Source: Patescibacteria group bacterium
Lineage (GTDB): Bacteria; Patescibacteriota; Patescibacteriia; UBA2591; CALHIP01
Reading direction: 5' to 3'
DNA: 64,000 nucleotides
Assembly (NCBI GenBank): GCA_026417895.1
Contig: JAOACJ010000016.1
Location: 20,015-84,014, forward strand
A program made the position numbers and the translations under genes. The stretch's first letter is position 1. Each line of letters starts with the position of its first letter. The notes beneath the pieces are model-generated. The model was not told where the DNA came from. It saw nothing but the letters and a program-made list of their open reading frames with translations, and searched no databases. Positions 2,336 through 53,168 of the stretch are shown here, one piece after another.

Positions 2336-4249
2336 TTAAGGCTCTGTCTCTAAACCTTCCGCATATTCTCTTTTTGCTTGCTCAATTTCTAAAAGTTGAC
2401 GTGGGTCAGAAGTAATAAGCTGGTCTTCAGTATAAGAAGCAACAACCTGCATAGCCGCATGTCTAGCCCCGGCAAAGAAAATTCCCTCACCCACTCCACA
2501 TTCTAAAAGTAAATATTTTTCTCCCTCTGTTAACATAAAAGTTTTTGCAACAATATCAATAGCCGCCGGTGTTTGTTTGAAAAGAATTCTTAAGGCTGAA
2601 TTGGTGACAATGGCTCGGCCGTAGTCAGAAACAAGAAAATCATTAACATCTTGCGTAATAGTCGTCACTCCTAGATAATATTTTCGACATCTTTTGACTA
2701 AAGAAAAGATAAAGCGGGCCGAATCTTCATGTTGCATTAACCACCAAGCCTCATCAATAACCAAAATCCTTTTTTTTAGTTCTGAGCGGACAACGTTCCA
2801 AATATAATTAACAATGGTATAAATAGCCATTGGCCTTAATTCGTCTTCCAAATCACGAACAGAGAAAACGACCAATTGATTATCAAGCTCAACATTGGTT
2901 TGATGATTCAAAAGGCCAGCAAAGGTGCCCTCGGTATATTTTTTTAATCGTTGTGCTAGATTTTCGCCACCAGCCATTCCTTCCAAAATCTCTTGAAGGT
3001 CAGAAAGGGTTGGCATTTCCACTTTATTTAAATCGCAGCCCGGAACAATATCTTTTTTGGCATAAGTCTCTAATAAAGCCCGGTCAAGTAAAGAATCTTC
3101 CTCAGGGGTGAAAATTTTTTGTCCCTTCTCTCCGGGTACGCCGATCATAATTTTCAATAAACCTTTTAAAACAACAACGGCCGAGCGAATAATATCAGCG
3201 ACTTTTAACTCTACACCTCTTTTTGGTCGAGGTAAATCAAAGGGATTAATTTTGCTCTCTGAAGCCAAGGAAACATCAATGTAGGTACCACCTACCGCTT
3301 CAGATAGATGTTTATATTCTCTTTCCGGATCAATAATAATAACATCAATACCCATCATCATTGAACGCAAAACCTCTAATTTAACACAATAACTTTTCCC
3401 TGCCCCTGAAGTGGCAAAAATGACTGAATTATAATTTTCTAAGGAAAAACGATCAAAAAGAATTAAACTATTATTATGACGATTAATGCCGTAAAGAATA
3501 CCACGATCAGAGGTAACATCAGCGGAAATAAAAGGAAAAGAAGAGGCACAGGGCGAAGAGTGCATATTAAAAGCAATCATTAACTCGTCATTACCTAATG
3601 GGAGGGTCGAGTTGAATCCTTGTTCGGCTTGGTAAAAAACTCTTTTACTATAAACCAGTTTTGAACCGAAAATGCCCTCGATTTTTTCCGTTAGTAAATC
3701 CAAGTCCTTTAAAGAATCGGCATAAAGAGTGACGTATAAAGCAAATTGAAAGAAATGTTCCACTCCTTGAGTTAAATCGTCTCGCAATTTCTCAATATCC
3801 CTTAGAGCTGTTTCTTTAATCGGATCGCGCGGTAAGCCTTTTTCTCTTTCCATTTCAATTTCAGCATAGAGAATGCCGACTCTTTTTTGTAATTGTTTTA
3901 AAATAATCGAGGCGTGTACCGGGTAAAAAAACATAGCAATATCCATCGGCGCGTTAAAATTGATAATTGGAGCAAACCAACCAATGGCAATATATCGGGG
4001 ATAGGCAGTGACAAAAAGGGTGCGAACATATTTGTTACCTAAAATCAAATGATCAGGGGTCACTTGCATAGCCGCCGGAGCGATTAAATCGCGAACAGAA
4101 ACTAGGCCCTCCTGTAAAGCCCTTTCCATTTCAATCATTTCCTTGTCCTTCATTTCTTCTTCCGTTTCTTTTCTTTTTTTCTCTTCCGGCGAAAGTCTTT
4201 CTTTTTTTAGTATTTCTGCTTTTTCAATTTTCGATGGCTCAAAGATCAT
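2336..4249 (-). CDS. virB4: VirB4/TrbE/TraC-family conjugal-transfer ATPase, central plus C-terminal ATPase part
   Basis: 637 aa. Walker A FATSGAGKSY, Walker B ILVIDEAWWLM, and the conserved N-proximal block NKYVRTLFVTAYPRYIAIGWF that is typical of VirB4 mid-region. Confidence 0.85.
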   Translation of the reverse strand: MIFEPSKIEKAEILKKERLSPEEKKRKETEEEMKDKEMIEMERALQEGLVSVRDLIAPAAMQVTPDHLILGNKYVRTLFVTAYPRYIAIGWFAPIINFNAPMDIAMFFYPVHASIILKQLQKRVGILYAEIEMEREKGLPRDPIKETALRDIEKLRDDLTQGVEHFFQFALYVTLYADSLKDLDLLTEKIEGIFGSKLVYSKRVFYQAEQGFNSTLPLGNDELMIAFNMHSSPCASSFPFISADVTSDRGILYGINRHNNSLILFDRFSLENYNSVIFATSGAGKSYCVKLEVLRSMMMGIDVIIIDPEREYKHLSEAVGGTYIDVSLASESKINPFDLPRPKRGVELKVADIIRSAVVVLKGLLKIMIGVPGEKGQKIFTPEEDSLLDRALLETYAKKDIVPGCDLNKVEMPTLSDLQEILEGMAGGENLAQRLKKYTEGTFAGLLNHQTNVELDNQLVVFSVRDLEDELRPMAIYTIVNYIWNVVRSELKKRILVIDEAWWLMQHEDSARFIFSLVKRCRKYYLGVTTITQDVNDFLVSDYGRAIVTNSALRILFKQTPAAIDIVAKTFMLTEGEKYLLLECGVGEGIFFAGARHAAMQVVASYTEDQLITSDPRQLLEIEQAKREYAEGLETEP

Positions 4250-22262: not shown

Positions 22263-23021
22263 TTATTTTTGTGCTTCTTTTACGGCTTGTAAAAACAGGT
22301 TTTTTAAGGTGGCATCATCAATTTGATCGAGAGTAGTTTTGTCCGCTCCGACCGAAAGCATCAACTGCCGAATAGTCGCTGGATCCAAATTTTCAAAACC
22401 AGTTAAATTTTCAGCAAAGGGTTGGTTAGTGGGAGGTGTATTAGTTATTGATAAATTGATCAATTTTTGCTGTTCAGCGATAATTTTAGAAAAATCTAAT
22501 TTGCCTAATCCGCTTGATAATTGTTTTTTTAACTCCTCAGGATCAATGCCTGTCTCTTGGATAGTTTCATTATACAACTTTTTTAGAGTTTCGTCATCAA
22601 CCTTGTCTAGGGTTTCTTTAGGTAGACCAGCTTGAATTAATATCTCTTTAATTTCCTCAACTGTTAGTTCTTTCTTTTCTTCTATTTTGGACCCCTCGGC
22701 AACTTTTTTCAAGGGGGTTGATTTGGGATTTAGAGGGTCAGAACCAGCCTCAATTTCTTCTTTGTCGGGATAATTATCAGAATCTGAATCGGATAGGTAA
22801 ATTGAGGTTTTATATTTAAAAACCTCATCAACATCAGAAAGACCATCTTTATCCGTGTCCCTCTGGGCTAATAAAGACTGAATTTCTTCATTAGTTAATT
22901 TATTTTCGTATTTTGGCACTCGAAACGGTCCTTGAATTGACTCTTTAATTCTAAAAAAGCCAAAAAAAAGGGTAAAAATAGCTAAAAGAGCTAAGCCAAT
23001 TAAAGGACCATGATTTTTCAT
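22263..23021 (-). CDS. membrane-anchored protein with Ca-binding-like Asp-rich loops and an internal duplicated helical motif
   Basis: 252 aa. N-terminal TM LIGLALLAIFTLFFGFF. DTDKDGLSDVDE and DSDSDNYPDKEE resemble thrombospondin-type-3 / dockerin-like calcium loops. There are two copies of ..AG..K.TLD..DD.TLK.L... The start overlaps the ksgA stop by 2 nt. Confidence 0.5.
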   Translation of the reverse strand: MKNHGPLIGLALLAIFTLFFGFFRIKESIQGPFRVPKYENKLTNEEIQSLLAQRDTDKDGLSDVDEVFKYKTSIYLSDSDSDNYPDKEEIEAGSDPLNPKSTPLKKVAEGSKIEEKKELTVEEIKEILIQAGLPKETLDKVDDETLKKLYNETIQETGIDPEELKKQLSSGLGKLDFSKIIAEQQKLINLSITNTPPTNQPFAENLTGFENLDPATIRQLMLSVGADKTTLDQIDDATLKNLFLQAVKEAQK

Positions 23022-23022
23022 A

Positions 23023-23841
23023 TTAAAAATCTTTTACAAAAACCCCAATGTTTTGATAAAGTTTTAGCCAGTCTTCTAAATCGAGGTTTTCTGCCCTCAC
23101 TTCTTGTGACCAACCGATTGCCTGAAAAAGTTCTTTTAACTTTTCCTTTTCTATGATTCTGGTTAAGTTGTTAACTAATTTTTTTCTGGGATGAGCAAAG
23201 CCAGTTTTAATTATTTTGAAAAATAAATTTCTTCTAATTTTGGAAAAACGAGGTTTGAGGTTGGTAATTTTCAAAATGGCGGAGTCAACTTTTGGTTTTG
23301 GCCAAAAATTATTTTTCGAAACAATTTGAACAATTTCTGGCTGACCATAAAAATTAACCATCAAAGAAATGATACTCTTTTTTTTATTTTTAGCAAGAAT
23401 CCTTTCGGCCACTTCTTTCTGAACCATTAAAACCATTAGTTTTGGCCTTGGTTCTTTAGTTAAAAATTTTCGTAAAACGACACCGGTAAGATAATAGGGT
23501 AAATTAGCGACAATTTTATAAGGATTTTTTAATTTTAAATTTTTAATTTTTAAGATATCGCCTTGAATAATTTCTAAATTTTTAACCTTTTTAAACTTCT
23601 CTTTTAAGAAATTAACTAATTTTTTATCAATTTCTATGGCTAATACTTTCTTAACTTTTTTGACTAATTCTTGAGTTAAAATGCCTAAACCTGGGCCAAT
23701 TTCTAAGACAAAATCGCCTTTTTTAAGCTCGGCCGCCTGAATTATTGTTTTTAAAATACTGGGATTAGTTAGGAAATTTTGCCCTCTTTTTTTTAGAGGC
23801 CGGAAATCTAAGGTTCGACAGATTTCTTTTACCTTCTTCAT
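23023..23841 (-). CDS. rsmA: 16S rRNA (adenine1518/1519-N6)-dimethyltransferase
   Basis: KKRGQNFLTNPSIL…GDFVLEIGPGLGILT (SAM-binding GxGxG) …NLEIIQGDILK; length 272 aa. Confidence 0.85.
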   Translation of the reverse strand: MKKVKEICRTLDFRPLKKRGQNFLTNPSILKTIIQAAELKKGDFVLEIGPGLGILTQELVKKVKKVLAIEIDKKLVNFLKEKFKKVKNLEIIQGDILKIKNLKLKNPYKIVANLPYYLTGVVLRKFLTKEPRPKLMVLMVQKEVAERILAKNKKKSIISLMVNFYGQPEIVQIVSKNNFWPKPKVDSAILKITNLKPRFSKIRRNLFFKIIKTGFAHPRKKLVNNLTRIIEKEKLKELFQAIGWSQEVRAENLDLEDWLKLYQNIGVFVKDF

Positions 23842-23855
23842 CTTTATTCCCCTAC

Positions 23856-23895
23856 CGTCTTATTTTTTATAACGATCGTTATAAATTTTAAGACG
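23856..23895. repeat. 40-nt imperfect palindromic element, copy 1 (between the wHTH gene stop and the ksgA start)
   Basis: CGTCTTAttttTTATAACGaTCGTTATAAAtttTAAGACG; the arms are reverse complements apart from a 3-nt internal T/T mismatch. Confidence 0.6.
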
Positions 23896-23906
23896 ATGGT
23901 TGCTTA

Positions 23907-24467
23907 TTATTTTTTATTATTAATTTGAACCTCTTCAATTAAGAGAAGACGGGTGTAGGGTTTAAGAAAATATTTTTTAATTAAATTTTCCGTTTTGGCT
24001 AAAACGTCATAAGGAGAGACCCAAATACTTTTTTGGAGCATTTGGAAGCCTAACCCCTGGAGTCCGGCACGGAGGAAATTTCTTTTTATTCTAATTTTTT
24101 CTGGAATATCAAAAATAATCATCAACCACTTACCATCTTTTCTCTTTTTAACTTCTTTCAAATTTTCTTTTACTTCTAAAATTTTTCTTTTCCCCTCTTC
24201 GCTCAGAAGCCAGCCTCTTGTTTTGTCTTTTTGAAAGCTTTTAATTAGACCTTTCTTTTTTAAATAATAAATTAAATTACGAAAAGCTCGTCGGCCAGTT
24301 TTTTTCTGGTAGATTTGTCGAAGTCTTTTATATTCAGGATAAAGAACGTCTTGCCAACTTCTCGGTGGCCAATTTAAAAAATCACCAAATTTCTCATAAA
24401 TTTTATATAAATCCCAAAGAAATTTTTCTGTCCAAGAAACCCTTTTTGAGATAATAAATTTTGACAT
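23907..24467 (-). CDS. winged-helix DNA-binding protein (PaaX-like N-terminus) with a C-terminal Cas2/VapD-like motif pattern
   Basis: 186 aa. N-terminal AFRNLIYYLKKKGLIKSFQKDKTRGWLLSEEG resembles a wHTH recognition helix plus wing. C-terminal WLMIIFDIPEKIRIKRNFLRAGLQGLGFQMLQKSIWVSPYD matches the beta1 (hhhhYD[IV]) - alpha1 (R..L...L...G.R.Q.SV) arrangement of Cas2-fold proteins. Confidence 0.5.
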   Translation of the reverse strand: MSKFIISKRVSWTEKFLWDLYKIYEKFGDFLNWPPRSWQDVLYPEYKRLRQIYQKKTGRRAFRNLIYYLKKKGLIKSFQKDKTRGWLLSEEGKRKILEVKENLKEVKKRKDGKWLMIIFDIPEKIRIKRNFLRAGLQGLGFQMLQKSIWVSPYDVLAKTENLIKKYFLKPYTRLLLIEEVQINNKK

Positions 24468-24494
24468 AAAATATCGTTAAATTCTCATTTATTG

Positions 24495-24533
24495 CGTCTT
24501 ATTTTTTAATGCGGTCGTAATAAATTATAAGAC
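24495..24533. repeat. 40-nt imperfect palindromic element, copy 2 (between the leuS stop and the wHTH gene start)
   Basis: CGTCTTATTTTTTAATGCGGTCGTAATAAATTATAAGAC shares gTCTTATTTTTTAwwnCGnTCGTwATAAATTwTAAGAC with copy 1. Confidence 0.55.
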
Positions 24534-24574
24534 AAATCAAAGGGCAAAGCAAGGAGTGAAATTAATCAATGAAA

Positions 24575-27088
24575 TTAATCAATAACGAAATTAATTAATT
24601 TGGAAGGGATAAAAATAACCTTTTTAATCTCTTGGCCAATTAGATATTTTTTGACTTTTTCTCGGTTTTTAGCTAAATTCTCAGCCTCTTCTTTTGAAAT
24701 AGTAATAGGAACTTCAATCTTCTCCCTAATTCTTCCATTAATCTGGATAATTAACTCAACTTTTTCTTCTTGAAGCAAACTGTCATCTGCCCTAGGCCAT
24801 TTTTCTAAAAAAATACTTTTCTTTTGGCCAATTTTTTGCCAAAGCTCTTCAGCTAAATGAGGAGCAAAAGGAGAAAGAATTTTCAAAAACAACCCACTTT
24901 CTTCTAGAGAAAGTTTTTCGTTCGGTTGAGACCAAAAATTAATCAATTCCATCAAAGAAGCAATGGCGGTATTAAATTTCATCATTTCAATATCTTGAGA
25001 AACCTTTTTGATCGTTTGATGAAGTTTTATTTTCATTTTTTTTGATGACGGACCAAATTTTTCTTTTTCCTGAAAAATTTCCCAAATTCGATTTAAAAAT
25101 CTGAAACAACCAATCATACTTTTAGTCTGCCACGCAATAGTCTCATCAAAGGGTCCCATAAACATTTCATAAACTCGTAATGTATCAGCACCATATTTTT
25201 TCACTATCTCGTCGGGATTAATAACATTGCCGAAACTTTTGCTCATCTTTCGCCCATCTTCACCCAAAACAATACCTTGAGAGGTTCTCTTTTGATATGG
25301 CTCAACGGTCGGGACAATACCAAGATCAAATAAAAATTTATAAATAAAACGAGAGTATAAAAGATGGAGGGTCGTATGCTCCATGCCGCCGTTATACCAA
25401 TCAACTGGTAGCCAATATTTTAGTAATTTTGAATTTTTCAGTTTGAATTTTGAATTTTTTTTCACTAGATAAGCAAGGTAGTACCAATTTGAACCAGCCC
25501 AATTCGGCATTGTATCAGTTTCTCTTTTGGCTAAACTACCGCATTTTGGACATTTTGTCTTAACCCATTTTTTAATTTTTGCTAATGGTGATTCGCCAGT
25601 ACCGGATGGTTGATACTTTTCTAAATAAGGTAGTTTAACGGGTAAATCTTTCTCAGCTACCGCCACCCAACCAGGATTTAAAATTTCCCCTTTACTAAAA
25701 TTTTGAATTTTGAATTTTGAATTTTGAATTTGTTGGGTGTTTGAAAATTGGGTATTGAAATTTTCTACTAATTTTTTGCAGTTTTTACAAAAAATTAGAG
25801 GGATCGGTTCACCCCAGTAGTGTTGACGAGAAAAAATCCAATCACGAAGTTTATATTGAACACTTTTCTGTCCTAAACCCTTTTGCTCTAACCAGTGAGT
25901 AATTTTTTCAATTGCTTCTTGAGACGATAAACCGCTAAACTGGTCGGAATTAATCAATCGACCATAACCAGTATAAGCTTTCTGACTAATATCGCCGCCC
26001 GCCACTACTTCTTTGATCGGTAAATTATATTTTTTGGCAAACTCAAAATCCCTCTCGTCATGAGCCGGCACAACCATTACCGCCCCACCACCATAAGTAG
26101 CAATAACATAATCACCAACCCAAACAGGGACCCTCTCTTGACTAACTGGATTAATGGCAAAAATACCCTTTAAAGGTACTCCTGTCTTCTCTTTTTCTAA
26201 TTTTGTCCTCTCAAACTCAGATTTTCTTTTTGATTTTTCAATGTATTTTTTAACCTCTTCTAAATTCTCTATCCTAGACTCCAAGTTCTTAATAATTTTA
26301 TGCTCAGGAGCAACAACTAAAGCCGTGACACCAAAAATCGTATCAATTCGTGTTGTAAAGACTTCGATTTGAAATTTGGCATTTGAAATTTGGAATTTAA
26401 CTGTTGTTCCCTCTGACCGACCAATCCAATTAATCTGTTGAGTTTTAATTTTCTCTAAATAATCAACATATTTTAAATCATCAATCAAACGATCGGCATA
26501 TTGAGTAATTCTCAATAACCACTGTTTAATCATTCTCTGCTCGGTAACGGTTCCACACCTTTCACACTTGCCTCCAATCACCTCCTCGTTGGCCAAACCA
26601 ATCTTACAGGATGGGCACCAATTAATTGGCATCTCAGCTTGATAAGCTAGGCCATGTTCAAAAAGTTTCAAAAAGATCCACTGCGTCCATTTATAATATT
26701 CTGAATCCGTTGTATTAATTTCACGCGACCAATCAAAAGAAAGGCCTAAAGATTTCAGCTGTTTTTTAAAAACTTTAATATTCTTTTTGGTAATTTCAAT
26801 CGGATGAAGGCCGGTTCTGATAGCATAATTCTCTGTTGGTAAACCAAAAGCATCCCAACCAATAGGAAATAAAACATTATAACCTTCCATCCTTCTTTTA
26901 CGAGCCAAAACATCAAGGCCAGTATAAGACCGAACATGACCAACATGAAGTCCATCGCCAGAAGGATAAGGAAATTCAACTAAAAGATATTGTTTTGGTT
27001 TAGAAGAAAGGTCTTTGGCTTGGAACAACTTCAATCTTTGCCAGATTTTCTGCCATTTTTTTTCAATTTTTTTTGGTTGATAGATCAT
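24575..27088 (-). CDS. leuS: leucine--tRNA ligase
   Basis: Class I HIGH motif (PYPSGDGLHVGHVRSY), KMSKS motif (RKMSKSFGNVINP), zinc-binding CxxC pairs, 837 aa. Confidence 0.95.
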   Translation of the reverse strand: MIYQPKKIEKKWQKIWQRLKLFQAKDLSSKPKQYLLVEFPYPSGDGLHVGHVRSYTGLDVLARKRRMEGYNVLFPIGWDAFGLPTENYAIRTGLHPIEITKKNIKVFKKQLKSLGLSFDWSREINTTDSEYYKWTQWIFLKLFEHGLAYQAEMPINWCPSCKIGLANEEVIGGKCERCGTVTEQRMIKQWLLRITQYADRLIDDLKYVDYLEKIKTQQINWIGRSEGTTVKFQISNAKFQIEVFTTRIDTIFGVTALVVAPEHKIIKNLESRIENLEEVKKYIEKSKRKSEFERTKLEKEKTGVPLKGIFAINPVSQERVPVWVGDYVIATYGGGAVMVVPAHDERDFEFAKKYNLPIKEVVAGGDISQKAYTGYGRLINSDQFSGLSSQEAIEKITHWLEQKGLGQKSVQYKLRDWIFSRQHYWGEPIPLIFCKNCKKLVENFNTQFSNTQQIQNSKFKIQNFSKGEILNPGWVAVAEKDLPVKLPYLEKYQPSGTGESPLAKIKKWVKTKCPKCGSLAKRETDTMPNWAGSNWYYLAYLVKKNSKFKLKNSKLLKYWLPVDWYNGGMEHTTLHLLYSRFIYKFLFDLGIVPTVEPYQKRTSQGIVLGEDGRKMSKSFGNVINPDEIVKKYGADTLRVYEMFMGPFDETIAWQTKSMIGCFRFLNRIWEIFQEKEKFGPSSKKMKIKLHQTIKKVSQDIEMMKFNTAIASLMELINFWSQPNEKLSLEESGLFLKILSPFAPHLAEELWQKIGQKKSIFLEKWPRADDSLLQEEKVELIIQINGRIREKIEVPITISKEEAENLAKNREKVKKYLIGQEIKKVIFIPSKLINFVID
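25434..25470. repeat. intragenic TTTGAATTTT-type microsatellite in leuS (site 1)
   Basis: attttgaatttttcagtttgaattttgaatttttttt; encodes KNSKFKLKNSK in LeuRS. Confidence 0.6.
25697..25731. repeat. intragenic (TTTTGAA)x4.5 perfect tandem repeat in leuS (site 2)
   Basis: Four perfect 7-nt units at 25700-25727; encodes QIQNSKFKIQNFS. Confidence 0.7.
26367..26398. repeat. intragenic ATTTGAAATTTGG x2 tandem repeat in leuS (site 3)
   Basis: atttgaaatttggcatttgaaatttgg; encodes VKFQISNAKFQIE. Confidence 0.6.
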
Positions 27089-50501: not shown

Positions 50502-53168
50502 ATGATGGACGAATCACTTTTTTACCTTTGTCCCAGTTGCCAAGGCCAAGGCTATCAAGGGAAGAAAAAATGCCAAACTTGTTTTGGCCTTGGTGTTTGG
50601 CAGGTTTATTCAGATAAGAAATTGTTTTTTGACTGGGACCTTTCTTCTTCGGTTTTTATTGCCAAAAAAATAAAAAAGTTTTTTGGTATTTTAATCTATC
50701 TTTTTCTATTTTCCTTTGGCTTGATAGGATTTCTTTCGCTTCTCCAAGCGATTTTTTCTTTTAAAATTCCGTCTAATTTTTTACCTCTCTTTCAAAGAGA
50801 AAAATTCTTTCTCATGAAAATTTTTTGGCTTTCGCTTTTAACCGATCTTTTTTTAGTCTATTCTAAAATTCAAAGAAAACCATCTTTTCTTAGAATCTTT
50901 AAAGAAAAAAAGGAAAAAATTAATGTCGCCCATTATCTTTCAGCTGCTAGTGAAAGAGTCTTAACCGAGGCGATTATTTTGAGTCGAAAACTGTTCCATC
51001 AGCAAATCAATCCTGTTCATCTTTTTATTGGTCTTCTTCAAAGTGAGGTTGGTTTTACTGTTTTAGGCCGCCTTGGTTTAAACTGGACTAAATTAAAAGA
51101 AGCGATAGCAAAAATTTTAAGAGAGATTCCCCCTAATTACGAAAGAAGACCATCTTTATTGAATCCAGAAACTAAAAAAATAATTCTTCAAGCCTCGGTT
51201 TTAACTTTACAAAAAAGAAAGGATTTAATTTCTCCTTTAGCAATAATGCGAGCAATTACCGTCTTTGAAGGACCAATTAAAAAAATACTTGACGAAGATT
51301 TTGAGATTAGACCTCGGGAAATAGAAAATGTCTGTCTTTGGTTTGAAATTTATGAAGAAATTAAAAAGGATTGGCAGAGACTTAGTGAGGGAGCACGAAG
51401 ACGACCAAAGGGGCCAATGAATGTGGCTATGACAGCCGTCGCCACTCCCTTTTTAGATGCTTTTTCTTCCGACCTCACAGCTCTAGCTCGTCTCGGTTAT
51501 TTAGGTCCTTTTATGGATCGAGAAAAAGAAATAGAAGAGATTTTCCGTGTTTTAGAAACAGGTCAAGGTAATTTAGTTTTAGTTGGTCCGCCTGGGGTTG
51601 GCAAAACCGCCATCATTGAAGGTTTGGCTCGAAAAATGATTCAGAATGAAGTGCCAAAAATTCTCCAGGATAAAAGATTAGTTAGTCTTTCTTTAGGTCG
51701 ATTAGTGGCTGGCGCTTCAAGGCCAGGCGAAATTGAGGAAAGAATGCAAATCATTATCCAAGAAATTATAAGAGCGGGTAATATTATCCTTTTTATTAAA
51801 GATATTCATAATTTAATTGGCGTTAAGACAACCGAGGGAGAATTAGATGTTGCAGAAATCTTGGCTGAAGCTTTAGAAAAGAAATATTTTTTACTTTTAG
51901 CTACTTCGACTTTAGGAATCTATGAGCATTGCTTAGAATCGTCGACTTTGGGTCAGGTTTTGACCAAGATTAACATCCAAGAACCGGATAAAAATAGCGC
52001 CATTCTTATTTGTGAGGCAAAAGTCGCTGCCATTGAAGCAAAAAATAAAGTTTTTTTCTCTTATGGTGCTTTAGAGAAAGCCGTTGAATTAGCCGAACGT
52101 TATCTTTATGAAAAATTTTTACCCCAAAAAGCGATTGAACTTCTTGAAGAGGTAGCGGTTTTTGTCAGGCAAAGAAAAGGAGCAAGGGCCATTGTCTTAA
52201 AGGAAGATGTGGCAGAAATTGTCGCTCAAAAAACTGGTATTCCTTCAGAAAAAATTAGTCAAGAAGAAAAAGAAAAATTATTAATTCTAGAAGAAAAAAT
52301 TCATGAGAGAATTGTTAATCAAGAGGAAGCGGTTCATTTAGTCGCTTCAGCCATTCGTCGAGCGAGAACAGAATTAAGAGATCCGAAAAAGCCGATTGTT
52401 AACCTCTTATTTTTAGGACCAACCGGGGTTGGTAAAACCGAATTAGCCAAAACAGTGGCTGAGGTTTACTTCGGTAAAGAAGAAAAAATGATTCGTTTAG
52501 ATATGAGTGAATTTCAGACTAAAGAGTCTTTAGGTCGACTTATTGGCTGCCCAAGTGAACCAAGGGGAGTTTTAACCGAAGCTGTCCGTAGAGCACCCTT
52601 TTCTCTCTTACTTCTTGATGAAATTGAAAAAGCTCACCCTGATATTCTTAACCTTTTTTTACAAGTCATGGACGATGGTCGACTAACTGATTGGCAAGGG
52701 AAAACAATTAATTTTACTAATTTAATGATTATTGGAACCTCAAATGCCGGCACTGAATTTATTCAGGAAGCACTTCTGGCTGGTAAAACAATCGAAGAGA
52801 TTAAAGAAATCTTACTTAAAGAAAAACTTTCACCTTATTTTCGGCCAGAATTTCTAAACCGTTTTGATGCTGTTGTCATTTTTAAGCCATTAGGGAAAAA
52901 AGAACTTTTCGCTATTACTCAACTGATTCTTAAAAAGCTTAGCTCTCAGATTGAAAAAAAAGGTATTACTTTCCAAGCGACAGAAGAAGCAATCAACGAA
53001 TTAGTGGAGAAAGGCTTTGACCCAATTTTCGGTGCCCGTGCTCTAAAACGAACCATTCAAGAAGAAGTTAACAATGCTTTGGCTAATTTTCTTTTGACCG
53101 GCAAAATCTCCCGTGGCGATCTGGTAATTTTAGAAAAAGGTGGTAAAATAAAAATAGAGAGAAAGTAA
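50502..53168 (+). CDS. ClpC/ClpB-like two-ring AAA+ chaperone with N-terminal zinc-ribbon and transmembrane extension
   Basis: D1 Walker A GPPGVGKTAIIEGLARKM; D2 Walker A GPTGVGKTELAKTVA and Walker B LLLLDEIEKAHPD; Clp_N repeat region. The N-terminal CPSCQGQG…CQTCFG zinc ribbon is followed by two hydrophobic helices. Confidence 0.85.
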   Translation: MMDESLFYLCPSCQGQGYQGKKKCQTCFGLGVWQVYSDKKLFFDWDLSSSVFIAKKIKKFFGILIYLFLFSFGLIGFLSLLQAIFSFKIPSNFLPLFQREKFFLMKIFWLSLLTDLFLVYSKIQRKPSFLRIFKEKKEKINVAHYLSAASERVLTEAIILSRKLFHQQINPVHLFIGLLQSEVGFTVLGRLGLNWTKLKEAIAKILREIPPNYERRPSLLNPETKKIILQASVLTLQKRKDLISPLAIMRAITVFEGPIKKILDEDFEIRPREIENVCLWFEIYEEIKKDWQRLSEGARRRPKGPMNVAMTAVATPFLDAFSSDLTALARLGYLGPFMDREKEIEEIFRVLETGQGNLVLVGPPGVGKTAIIEGLARKMIQNEVPKILQDKRLVSLSLGRLVAGASRPGEIEERMQIIIQEIIRAGNIILFIKDIHNLIGVKTTEGELDVAEILAEALEKKYFLLLATSTLGIYEHCLESSTLGQVLTKINIQEPDKNSAILICEAKVAAIEAKNKVFFSYGALEKAVELAERYLYEKFLPQKAIELLEEVAVFVRQRKGARAIVLKEDVAEIVAQKTGIPSEKISQEEKEKLLILEEKIHERIVNQEEAVHLVASAIRRARTELRDPKKPIVNLLFLGPTGVGKTELAKTVAEVYFGKEEKMIRLDMSEFQTKESLGRLIGCPSEPRGVLTEAVRRAPFSLLLLDEIEKAHPDILNLFLQVMDDGRLTDWQGKTINFTNLMIIGTSNAGTEFIQEALLAGKTIEEIKEILLKEKLSPYFRPEFLNRFDAVVIFKPLGKKELFAITQLILKKLSSQIEKKGITFQATEEAINELVEKGFDPIFGARALKRTIQEEVNNALANFLLTGKISRGDLVILEKGGKIKIERK

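What the first reader, a model, noticed from the sequence alone, without database searches (positions are those of the whole stretch)
23842..24574. Winged-helix regulator gene flanked by two copies of a 40-nt palindrome, one copy sitting 15 nt upstream of the ksgA/T4SS operon start
Copy 1 (23856-23895) and copy 2 (24495-24533) share gTCTTATTTTTTAwwnCGnTCGTwATAAATTwTAAGAC. Each is an imperfect hairpin or palindrome. Copy 2 is 28 nt upstream of the regulator's own start codon. Copy 1 lies between its stop and the ksgA start, in the 5' region of the 13-gene operon. This arrangement suggests an autoregulated repressor whose operator also gates the ksgA-giant-protein-T4SS operon. Alternatively the elements are paired transcription terminators or attenuators, or the boundaries of a small inserted cassette.
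Basis: seen in the sequence. Interest (0 to 1): 0.6.

Follow-up and report, generated by a model that had tools for sequence, protein, structure and literature searches.

The report
Mini-PaaX gene bracketed by its operators
A small DNA-binding protein gene in a Patescibacteria (CPR) genome is flanked on both sides by the 38-bp palindrome that the protein itself most likely binds, and the same arrangement recurs in most related genes sampled from this radiation, with a readable protein-DNA recognition code.

Summary
Two direct copies of a 38-40-nt near-palindrome (23856-23895, 24495-24533) bracket a 186-aa gene on the minus strand, and the 64-kb window holds no others. The protein is not a plain winged-helix regulator. 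It is a truncated PaaX-like protein with a wHTH domain and a Cas2-like PaaX_M domain, and it lacks the effector domain. In 80 homologous loci from other CPR genomes, 65 have such a palindrome upstream, 66 downstream and 55 both. The two copies at one locus are about 83% identical, against about 45% between paralogues in the same genome. The site is bipartite: 6-bp outer half-sites about 26 bp apart plus a 6-bp self-complementary centre. This matches the geometry of the E. coli PaaX operator, TGATTC-N27-GAATCA. Protein residues covary with the DNA in repeated independent switches. Recognition-helix N64 goes with AAGA arms, and Cas2-domain residue 146 K/Q goes with a central AT/GC. In many relatives the upstream palindrome carries a TATAAT box 6 nt before the ATG. 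The best reading is cognate operators of an autoregulated mini-PaaX. Control of the ksgA operon is plausible but unshown. The terminator and REP readings are not supported. No description of this family turned up in the literature I could search.

The parts
24495..24533 (.). In gene orientation it reads GTCTTATAATTTATTACGACCGCATTAAAAAATAAGAC(G). It has outer half-sites GTCTTA/TAAGAC 26 bp apart and a one-off centre CGACCG. It lies 42 nt after the leuS stop and 27 nt before the regulator's ATG.
   Evidence: It is 35/38 identical in the 64%-identical orthologue L001, while the 5' flank is not conserved.
23856..23895 (.). In gene orientation it reads CGTCTTAAAATTTATAACGATCGTTATAAAAAATAAGACG. The centre CGATCG is perfect and it is the better palindrome of the two. 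It lies 11 nt after the regulator's stop and 14 nt before the ksgA ATG.
   Evidence: It is nearly identical in L001. The centre CGATCG is what K146/E123 predict.
23907..24467 (-). The 186-aa mini-PaaX. It has an N-terminal wHTH (recognition helix about 58-71 with N64, wing 75-88) and a Cas2-like PaaX_M domain (108-181) carrying FDIPE (D120, E123) and LQKSIW (Q145, K146, S147, W149). It has no PaaX C-terminal effector domain.
   Evidence: Pfam, NCBIfam, AF2 model, Foldseek with PaaX 8a39 as top hit followed by Cas2 structures, family alignment.
24468..24494 (-). Leader or promoter-proximal stretch between the upstream operator and the ATG. The block CAATAAATGAGAATTTAA is conserved with L001 (CTATAAGTGAGGATTTAA) and is a possible -10. 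This assignment is weak.
   Evidence: Alignment. The promoter scan gave no convincing hit.
23023..23841 (-). ksgA (16S rRNA adenine dimethylase), the first gene downstream of the downstream operator. It is a candidate regulated target.
   Evidence: PF00398, E 2.5e-60. The leuS-X-ksgA synteny is conserved in L001 and L099.
24575..27088 (-). leuS, the co-directional upstream neighbour. Its read-through transcription would meet the upstream operator.
   Evidence: ORF. It clusters with LeuRS neighbours of other loci. The name leuS is my own reading of the protein sequence; no family search was run on it.

Best explanation
The two palindromes are the cognate double-stranded DNA operators of the protein encoded between them. 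That protein is a truncated PaaX-type repressor, a wHTH domain plus a Cas2-like dimerisation domain. A symmetric dimer is inferred to bind each 38-bp site in three places. The two wHTH recognition helices read the 6-bp outer half-sites (GTCTTA/TAAGAC, 26 bp apart). The Cas2-like dimer sits over the dyad and reads the central CGATCG. Binding upstream is inferred to repress the protein's own transcription. This could work by promoter occlusion, as for PaaX at Px, and/or by blocking read-through from leuS. Binding at the stop-codon-proximal downstream site is inferred to cooperate with the upstream site (looping) and/or to limit transcription running on into ksgA and the T4SS-like genes. Shown computationally: specific pairing of protein and site, the bipartite geometry, and the residue-base code. 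Inferred: repression, the roles of the two sites, and any effect on ksgA.
For: (1) Of 119 strong palindromes in 462 kb of 80 homologous loci, 76 lie within 100 nt of the gene's ends and none lies inside it. 65/80 loci have one upstream, 66/80 downstream and 55 both, with a median length of 38 nt. (2) The upstream-versus-downstream flank match exceeds every one of 150 mismatched-locus controls in 38/80 loci and the 95th percentile in 59/80. The U and D 38-mers are 83% identical within a locus against 45% between paralogues of one genome. (3) Symmetry and U/D concordance peak at positions 1-4 and 13-18 from the dyad and fall to background beyond 19. This is the 6+26/27+6 geometry reported for E. 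coli PaaX, TGATTC(N27)GAATCA, and PaaX represses its own promoter sterically (PMC9493321). (4) Fold and profiles: PF20803 at 72 bits, Foldseek top hit PaaX 8a39, then Rv0674 and Cas2 structures. (5) Covariation: K146 goes with a central AT (CGATCG 31, CAATTG 6) and Q146 with a central GC (CGGCCG 34, AAGCTT 19). All 8 phylogenetically independent K/Q contrasts agree. E123 goes with CGnnCG and Q123 with AAGCTT. N64 goes with AAGA arms in 9/9 loci against 1/60 for other residues (p 2e-10, 5 independent contrasts). K64 goes with G at position 15 in 19/23. Most pairings follow classical major-groove preferences (N/Q-A, K-G, E-C). (6) Five loci held out of the analysis mostly behaved as predicted. 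(7) The gene-proximal arm of the upstream palindrome completes TATAAT in 24/55 loci (at least 5/6), against 9/55 on the distal side. In 13 of those 24 the box ends 4-9 nt before the ATG, with a mode of 6. (8) In the WIN/L001 alignment the palindromes are the best-conserved part of the intergenic DNA.
Against: No binding, transcript or expression data exist, so everything here is comparative. In this window the upstream site has no evident -10 overlap and the promoter scan is uninformative. The downstream site tracks the regulator's stop codon rather than the next gene's start, so its regulatory target is unclear. The residue-123 rule failed in one held-out locus, and Q146 paired with AACGTT in another. 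Covariation cannot formally separate duplex from hairpin recognition. Palindromes of the same class also occur away from any X gene, one of them in frame inside alanine racemase. A purely local autoregulator does not explain these. Variable inner positions stay concordant in all four arms, which hints at homogenisation or a mobility mechanism beyond simple selection.
Confidence: 0.72

Rival explanations
1. Mobile or selfish cassette. The palindrome-gene-palindrome unit moves or is maintained as a module. The palindromes would be recombination or cleavage sites, or target-site duplications. The Cas2-like domain, with its invariant Asp120 over the dyad, would act as a site-specific nuclease. This would be loosely analogous to REPIN-RAYT systems or Rickettsia palindromic elements.
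For: There are several paralogues per genome, each with its own palindromes, at more than 10 different housekeeping junctions. The unit is extremely compact, with the downstream copy starting -8 to +5 from the stop in about 40 of 66 loci. Some loci have flank identity well beyond the palindrome, such as 65 nt in L066 and 51 nt in L048. A palindrome of the window's class sits within an approximately 45-nt in-frame insertion in alr in four related proteins and is absent from similarly close relatives. The Cas2 signature residues D120, Q145 and S147 are invariant. The specificity residues 123 and 146 flank them in sequence.
Against: Proteins cluster by synteny (dprA-X-topA, degT-X-femAB, ligA-X-ftsW, leuS-X-ksgA), which indicates long vertical inheritance rather than frequent movement. 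No empty site with a single palindrome was found. There are only two copies in 64 kb here and none in 21 kb of a relative. No relative occurs in viral contigs. No recombinase or transposase is associated with the unit. Nuclease activity is pure conjecture.
Confidence: 0.14
2. RNA-level element. The palindromes would act as hairpins in the polycistronic transcript, as terminators, attenuators, stabilisers or processing sites, possibly recognised by the Cas2-like (RNase-like) domain.
For: Copy 1 folds well as RNA on the sense strand (-18.5 kcal/mol, z -6.0). The sites lie between co-directional genes. Some Cas2 proteins have been reported to have RNase activity (from my own knowledge, not checked here).
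Against: No U-tract follows either copy and the terminator scan found none. Copy 2 is a poor sense-strand hairpin (-6.4 kcal/mol, z -1.5). Symmetry runs through the centre, whose 6-mers are self-complementary in nearly all cases, and a hairpin loop has no need for that. Arm mismatches show no significant G:U bias on the sense strand (58 against 41, p 0.11). A hairpin function does not explain why the two copies at one locus must match each other. No Rfam family matches.
Confidence: 0.07
3. Generic dispersed repeat (REP-like) or chance similarity, unrelated to the flanked gene.
For: Low-GC intergenic DNA is rich in A/T palindromes. Solo copies of the class exist in metagenomes.
Against: Shuffles give zero expected matches. 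There are only two copies in 64 kb, both flanking the gene. The arrangement recurs in most of 80 independent loci, and the protein covaries with it.
Confidence: 0.02

Closest known systems
PaaX, the phenylacetyl-CoA-responsive repressor of the paa and pac genes (E. coli, Pseudomonas)
   Same: It has the same N-terminal wHTH followed by a Cas2-like dimerisation domain (PF20803; Foldseek top hit 8a39). Its operator consists of two 6-bp inverted half-sites separated by about 27 bp, TGATTC(N27)GAATCA, against GTCTTA(N26)TAAGAC here. PaaX represses its own promoter by steric hindrance (PMC9493321).
   Different: The CPR protein lacks the C-terminal effector-binding domain (186 aa against 305 for the E. 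coli chain 8a39) and scores 35.6 bits against the equivalog cut-off of 264.55. There are no paa genes nearby. Its sites are full 38-bp palindromes with a conserved, protein-specified centre. They bracket the regulator's own gene on both sides, and there are several orthogonal paralogues per genome.
Cas2 (CRISPR adaptation protein)
   Same: It shares the ferredoxin-like fold, the N-terminal Asp at the end of beta1 (FDIP against YDI) and a QxSIW motif that resembles what I recall as the Cas2 QxSVF motif. Members of the family are often annotated as Cas2.
   Different: There is no CRISPR array or cas context in the window. The domain is fused to a wHTH. The window protein falls below the Cas2 cut-off (23.4 against 24.5 bits). 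Here the domain appears to specify a DNA sequence, which I am not aware of having been described for Cas2.
REPIN-RAYT systems (REP palindromes with their flanked, vertically inherited RAYT gene)
   Same: A single-copy, vertically inherited gene is flanked by its cognate palindromes. Several paralogous systems with distinct palindromes coexist in one genome. A few solo palindromes occur elsewhere.
   Different: The protein is not an HUH/Y1 transposase. Copy number is very low, with 2 in 64 kb. The palindromes are perfect through the centre and look like duplex operators. No evidence of ongoing dispersal was found.
Rickettsia palindromic elements (RPEs)
   Same: One palindrome of the window's class lies within an in-frame insertion in a housekeeping enzyme (alanine racemase) and is retained across four lineages.
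   Different: RPEs are longer (about 100-150 bp), number many copies per genome and have no known cognate protein. Only one intragenic case was seen here.

Membership tests
PaaX family (TIGR02277 / GntR-like PaaX repressors) | [quoted passage not shown] | tested here: met
   The AF2 model shows helices followed by a beta-hairpin wing at 75-88. The NCBIfam PaaX alignment covers residues 59-172. Foldseek gives PaaX 8a39 as top hit over 125 columns.
PaaX family (TIGR02277 / GntR-like PaaX repressors) | Central Cas2-like dimerisation domain (PF20803 PaaX_M) | tested here: met
   72.4 bits against a cut-off of 24, residues 108-181.
PaaX family (TIGR02277 / GntR-like PaaX repressors) | C-terminal helical effector (phenylacetyl-CoA) domain and a full-length equivalog score | tested here: not met
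   The protein ends at residue 186, right after the Cas2-like domain. No PaaX_C hit was found. TIGR02277 scores 35.6 bits against a cut-off of 264.55.
PaaX family (TIGR02277 / GntR-like PaaX repressors) | Operator of two 6-bp inverted half-sites separated by about 26-27 bp | tested here: met
   The sites read GTCTTA-N26-TAAGAC. Family-wide conservation peaks at positions 13-18 from the dyad. The literature value is TGATTC(N27)GAATCA. Binding itself was not tested.
PaaX family (TIGR02277 / GntR-like PaaX repressors) | Genomic association with paa/aromatic catabolic genes | tested here: not met
   By my reading of the neighbour cluster representatives, the neighbours are leuS, ksgA, dprA, topA, ligA, ftsW, degT, femAB and the like.
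Cas2 (CRISPR-associated) | Passes the Cas2 model cut-off and lies next to cas1 or a CRISPR array | tested here: not met
   TIGR01573 scores 23.4 bits against a cut-off of 24.5 for the window protein. No CRISPR-like array occurs in the window. I did not search for cas1 explicitly.
Intrinsic (Rho-independent) terminator | G+C-rich stem-loop followed by a U-tract | tested here: not met
   The scan found 0 terminator-like sites in 22900-25200. The sequences after both copies lack T-runs. The stems are A/T-rich with no loop.
REP/BIME with RAYT (REPtron) | Flanked gene is an HUH Y1 transposase and the palindrome is dispersed in many copies | tested here: not met
   The protein is wHTH plus Cas2-like. 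Only 2 copies occur in 64 kb. A whole-genome census was not possible.
Integron gene cassette (ORF + attC) | attC with R''/L''-L'/R' architecture and extrahelical bases, an adjacent intI integrase, and arrays of unrelated cassettes | not tested
   I considered this only by analogy, because the palindrome abuts the stop codon. No cassette array is apparent, and both flanking sites are the same sequence, unlike neighbouring attC sites.

The most novel reading that the evidence does not exclude
The Cas2-like domain of these proteins is a sequence-specific DNA-reading and possibly DNA-cutting head. Each palindrome-gene-palindrome unit would then be a self-contained element. One possibility is an orthogonal, self-limiting transcriptional 'valve' inserted between housekeeping genes of CPR genomes. 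The other is a REPIN-RAYT-like selfish or domesticated system whose palindromes can seed new sites, even inside coding genes such as alr. This would be a new functional class derived from Cas2.
Probability: 0.15. Interest if true: 0.9.

Novelty: new variant of a known kind. Interest (0 to 1): 0.68.

Why it matters
Gene regulation in the Candidate Phyla Radiation is largely unknown. This would be a large family of small regulators, with about 4,000 clusters at 50% identity at E<=1e-10. They are often mis-annotated as Cas2, and their targets can be read directly from the genome. The covariation gives a testable recognition code: residue 64 for the outer arm, residues 123 and 146 for the centre. 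A 2022 review stated that the PaaX-DNA complex had not yet been solved. Sequence-specific DNA reading by a Cas2 fold would interest CRISPR evolution researchers. The orthogonal protein-operator pairs could also serve as parts for synthetic biology.

Tried and rejected
I rejected the intrinsic-terminator reading. There is no T-run, the scan found none, and copy 2 folds poorly as sense RNA.

I rejected a known RNA family, since Rfam gave only noise.

I rejected a dispersed REP-like repeat in this genome. There are no further copies in 64 kb at up to 3 mismatches. A half-site near-match at 50770 is not a palindrome.

I looked for a phage or MGE origin and found no relative in IMG/VR.

I rejected a CRISPR association, because the window has no array.

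I tried to place a sigma70 promoter in the window's own intergenic regions, but it was inconclusive. Only a weakly -10-like block conserved with L001 emerged.

I tried to define the insertion boundaries or a target duplication for the alr palindrome. The flanks are too diverged.

PDB sequence search gave only a marginal wHTH hit, 1tbx. PHROGs gave nothing useful. PADLOC gave only weak Cas2 models.

Five literature searches for this family or arrangement found nothing. One look-up failed (P0116), and one paper was not held.

Full report
OBSERVATION. The two elements lie at 23856-23894/5 and 24495-24533. They are 85% identical over 39 nt in direct register, and each is an imperfect palindrome, with arms 85% and 78% complementary. 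The looser pattern GTCTTA-N(10-40)-TAAGAC gives the same two sites. All local genes are on the minus strand, in the order leuS (24575-27088), a 186-aa ORF (23907-24467), ksgA (23023-23841), a TSP3-repeat protein, a 3171-aa protein and then T4SS-like genes. In gene orientation the upstream copy ends 27 nt before the ATG. The downstream copy begins 11 nt after the stop and ends 14 nt before the ksgA ATG.

THE PROTEIN. It is more than a winged-helix protein. Residues 108-181 match PF20803, the Cas2-like central domain of PaaX, at 72 bits against a cut-off of 24. NCBIfam aligns residues 59-172 to PaaX positions 34-146, but far below the equivalog cut-off (35.6 against 264.55 bits). It nearly reaches the Cas2 cut-off (23.4 against 24.5). 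An AlphaFold2 model (mean pLDDT 76, about 86-94 across most of the Cas2-like half) has E. coli PaaX (8a39) as its best PDB match, followed by Rv0674 and many Cas2 structures. There is no PaaX C-terminal effector domain. The exact protein occurs in a Patescibacteria MAG. Homologues of about 175 aa are abundant in CPR metagenomes and are variously annotated as hypothetical, Cas2 or PaaX. A profile search finds 5,935 cluster representatives at 50% identity, 4,063 of them at E<=1e-10.

THE ARRANGEMENT IS A FAMILY TRAIT. I fetched 80 loci encoding relatives from GTDB species genomes. 284 loci were found, and several genomes carry 2-5 copies. Scanning their flanks showed that most genes are bracketed by two near-perfect palindromes of about 38 nt. 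Of the 119 strong palindromes in the 462 kb, 76 lie within 100 nt of the gene's ends and none lies inside it. Most of the remainder are a different class, G+C stems with loops that look like terminators. A loop-free palindrome is present upstream in 65 loci, downstream in 66 and on both sides in 55. The best upstream-versus-downstream match beats all 150 mismatched-locus controls in 38 loci and the 95th percentile in 59. Within a locus the two 38-mers are 83% identical. Between paralogues of the same genome they are 45% identical. The 64%-identical orthologue L001 keeps the order leuS-palindrome-X-palindrome-ksgA. It even keeps the difference between the two copies, CGACCG upstream and CGATCG downstream. 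The palindromes are the best-conserved intergenic DNA. Closer relatives L098-L100 show the same pattern.

ANATOMY OF THE SITE. I aligned 112 palindromes on their dyad. Arm symmetry and upstream/downstream concordance are highest at positions 1-4 (0.95-1.0) and 13-18 (about 0.9-0.99). They dip at positions 5-12 (about 0.8) and fall to background beyond position 19. Mismatches concentrate at positions 5-12. The central 6-mer is almost always self-complementary and drawn from a few words: CGGCCG 44, CGATCG 37, AAGCTT 20, AACGTT 6 and CAATTG 6. The site is therefore two 6-bp outer half-sites about 26 bp apart plus a central element. A review gives the E. coli PaaX site as TGATTC(N27)GAATCA. It states that PaaX represses its own promoter by steric hindrance and that no PaaX-DNA structure was then available (PMC9493321). 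The window's GTCTTA(N26)TAAGAC has the same geometry.

PROTEIN-DNA COVARIATION. Mutual information between alignment columns and half-site positions singled out residue 146 against the central base (z 24.5). Residue 146 is the x of the LQxS[IV]W motif in the Cas2-like domain. K146 goes with a central AT (CGATCG 31, CAATTG 6, CTATCG 3). Q146 goes with a central GC (CGGCCG 34, AAGCTT 19). H/Y146 goes with AACGTT. Residue 123 of the FDIPE motif tracks the outer core: E with CGnnCG, Q with AAGCTT, K/T with AACGTT or CAATTG. I rebuilt the tree without these columns. All 8 phylogenetically independent K/Q contrasts show the same pairing. In the recognition helix, N64 goes with arms containing AAGA in 9/9 loci against 1/60 for other residues (Fisher 1.8e-10, five independent contrasts). 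K64 goes with G at position 15 in 19/23. A distant homologue found through a DNA-pattern search (L086) also has Asn at the helix position I judged, by eye, to correspond to 64. Its flanking palindromes have arms ending AAGAC or AAGAT. Most pairings (N-A, K-G, E-C, Q-A) follow classical duplex major-groove preferences, though K146 with a central AT does not. That last point is my interpretation.

I then fetched five further loci as a test.
- N/E/Q gave CGGCCG with TAAG arms, as predicted.
- K/Q/Q gave AAGCTT with GAGTAT arms and a TATAAT box, as predicted.
- N/R/Q gave AAGA arms as predicted, but the centre was AACGTT.
- Q/K/K gave an AT centre as predicted, but CGATCG rather than the CAATTG predicted from K123.
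- E146, for which I had no prediction, gave CGATCG.
The window protein (N64, E123, K146) fits its own sites.

PROMOTER OVERLAP. On the gene-proximal side of upstream palindromes, positions 16-21 have the consensus TATAAT. 24/55 match at 5/6 or better and 10 are perfect. On the distal side 9/55 match and none is perfect. In 13 of those 24 the hexamer ends 4-9 nt before the ATG, with a mode of 6. This implies a leaderless mRNA from a promoter embedded in the operator. Downstream palindromes show no clear enrichment (14/57). They are instead anchored to the regulator's stop codon, starting at -8 to +5 in about 40 of 66 loci. The window belongs to the N64/AAGAC subtype, whose arms are not -10-like. 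There, only a weakly -10-like block conserved with L001 follows the upstream site.

CONTEXT AND EVOLUTION. Neighbours are co-directional housekeeping genes. The proteins cluster by synteny: dprA-X-topA, degT-X-femAB, murF-X-degT, ligA-X-ftsW and leuS-X-ksgA. The cassettes are therefore inherited vertically within clades. Their palindromes nevertheless change in concert across all four arms. No relative occurs in viral contigs.

WHAT DOES NOT FIT A PURELY LOCAL REPRESSOR. A metagenome scan for the window's palindrome class returned 13 loci. Only one has an adjacent X gene. The others are solo copies close to the window's sequence, mostly with the one-off centre CGACCG. They lie after stop codons or before genes. 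One lies in frame inside alanine racemase, where it encodes VLKFNATADKNKT. Four related Alr proteins carry this insertion of roughly 15-24 residues, while equally close relatives lack it. A second lineage keeps the palindrome with a compensatory change. Twenty-one kb from a relative that lacks the insertion contains no palindrome of this class. The proteins therefore probably have a few trans sites, and the palindromes can arise by insertion. This leaves a minority case for a mobile or selfish element.

RIVALS. The terminator or RNA-hairpin reading is weak.
- No U-tract follows either copy and the scan finds no terminator.
- The upstream copy folds poorly as sense RNA.
- The centres are self-complementary, which a hairpin loop does not need.
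- Arm mismatches show no G:U bias.
- No Rfam family matches.
The generic-repeat and chance readings are excluded by the counts above. There is no CRISPR array nearby.

VERDICT. The finding is real. The palindromes are best explained as the cognate PaaX-type operators of a truncated, effector-less PaaX/Cas2-like repressor that brackets its own gene. Autoregulation is likely. Control of the ksgA/T4SS-like genes is possible but not shown. Searches of the held literature found no description of this CPR family, of the bracketing arrangement or of the recognition code.

Noticed in passing
L082 2438-2475 (same as L096 9735-9772 and L097 7713-7750); L094 4228-4265: A 38-bp palindrome of the window's class (GTCTTAAAATTTAATGCGACCGCAGATAAAAATAAGAC) lies in frame inside an alanine racemase gene, within an insertion of roughly 15-24 residues (about 45 nt against L101). 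Four related Alr proteins have the insertion (P0112, P0113, P0115, P0116) and equally close relatives lack it. L094 keeps the palindrome with a compensatory change.
   Followed up: partly
L083 2695-2732 with ORF 2791-3480 (minus); also L090 and L088: A perfect palindrome of the same class (GTCTTAATATAATTGACGACCGTCAATTATATTAAGAC) lies about 59 nt from an ORF whose sequence (MPNHWHLV motif) looks to me like an IS200/RAYT-type HUH transposase. No family search was run on it. This hints that some such palindromes may be REP-like in other genomes.
   Followed up: no
L081-L093 (metagenome hits): Solo palindromes of the GTCTTA class almost all have the non-self-complementary centre CGACCG/CGGTCG, as does the window's upstream copy. 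The one adjacent homologue (L086) has Asn in the LQxSVW motif, the counterpart of residue 146. The reason for the hybrid centre is unexplained.
   Followed up: partly
window 24555-24599: Three tandem copies of a 13-16-nt unit (AATGAAATTAATCAAT) span the last codons and stop of leuS and the start of the leuS-X spacer.
   Followed up: no
L066, 135 nt upstream and 24 nt downstream of the gene; L048: Perfect direct repeats of 65 nt (L066) and 51 nt (L048) flank the gene and extend beyond the palindrome proper. This suggests recent duplication or gene conversion between the two flanks.
   Followed up: no
L094 2376-2915 and 2957-3634 against L096 7695-8936: Seryl-tRNA synthetase is called as two ORFs (N-terminal domain and catalytic core) 42 nt apart in L094 and L095, but as one 413-aa gene in the related L096. 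It could be a split gene, a frameshift or an assembly error.
   Followed up: no
Alignment A2, columns 95-125 (Alr proteins P0112, P0114, P0119, P0134): There is a second hypervariable insertion site in the same alanine racemases (for example PTPMNYPASAEPR...). Only some close relatives have it, and I did not examine it at DNA level.
   Followed up: no
L075, 1 and 84 nt after the stop; L056, 1382 nt after the stop; L008, 224 nt after the stop; L005, 308 nt after the stop: Extra loop-free palindromes with the family's CGGCCG/CGATCG cores but different outer arms lie near some loci, for example after the next gene. They are possible additional sites or sites of another paralogue.
   Followed up: no
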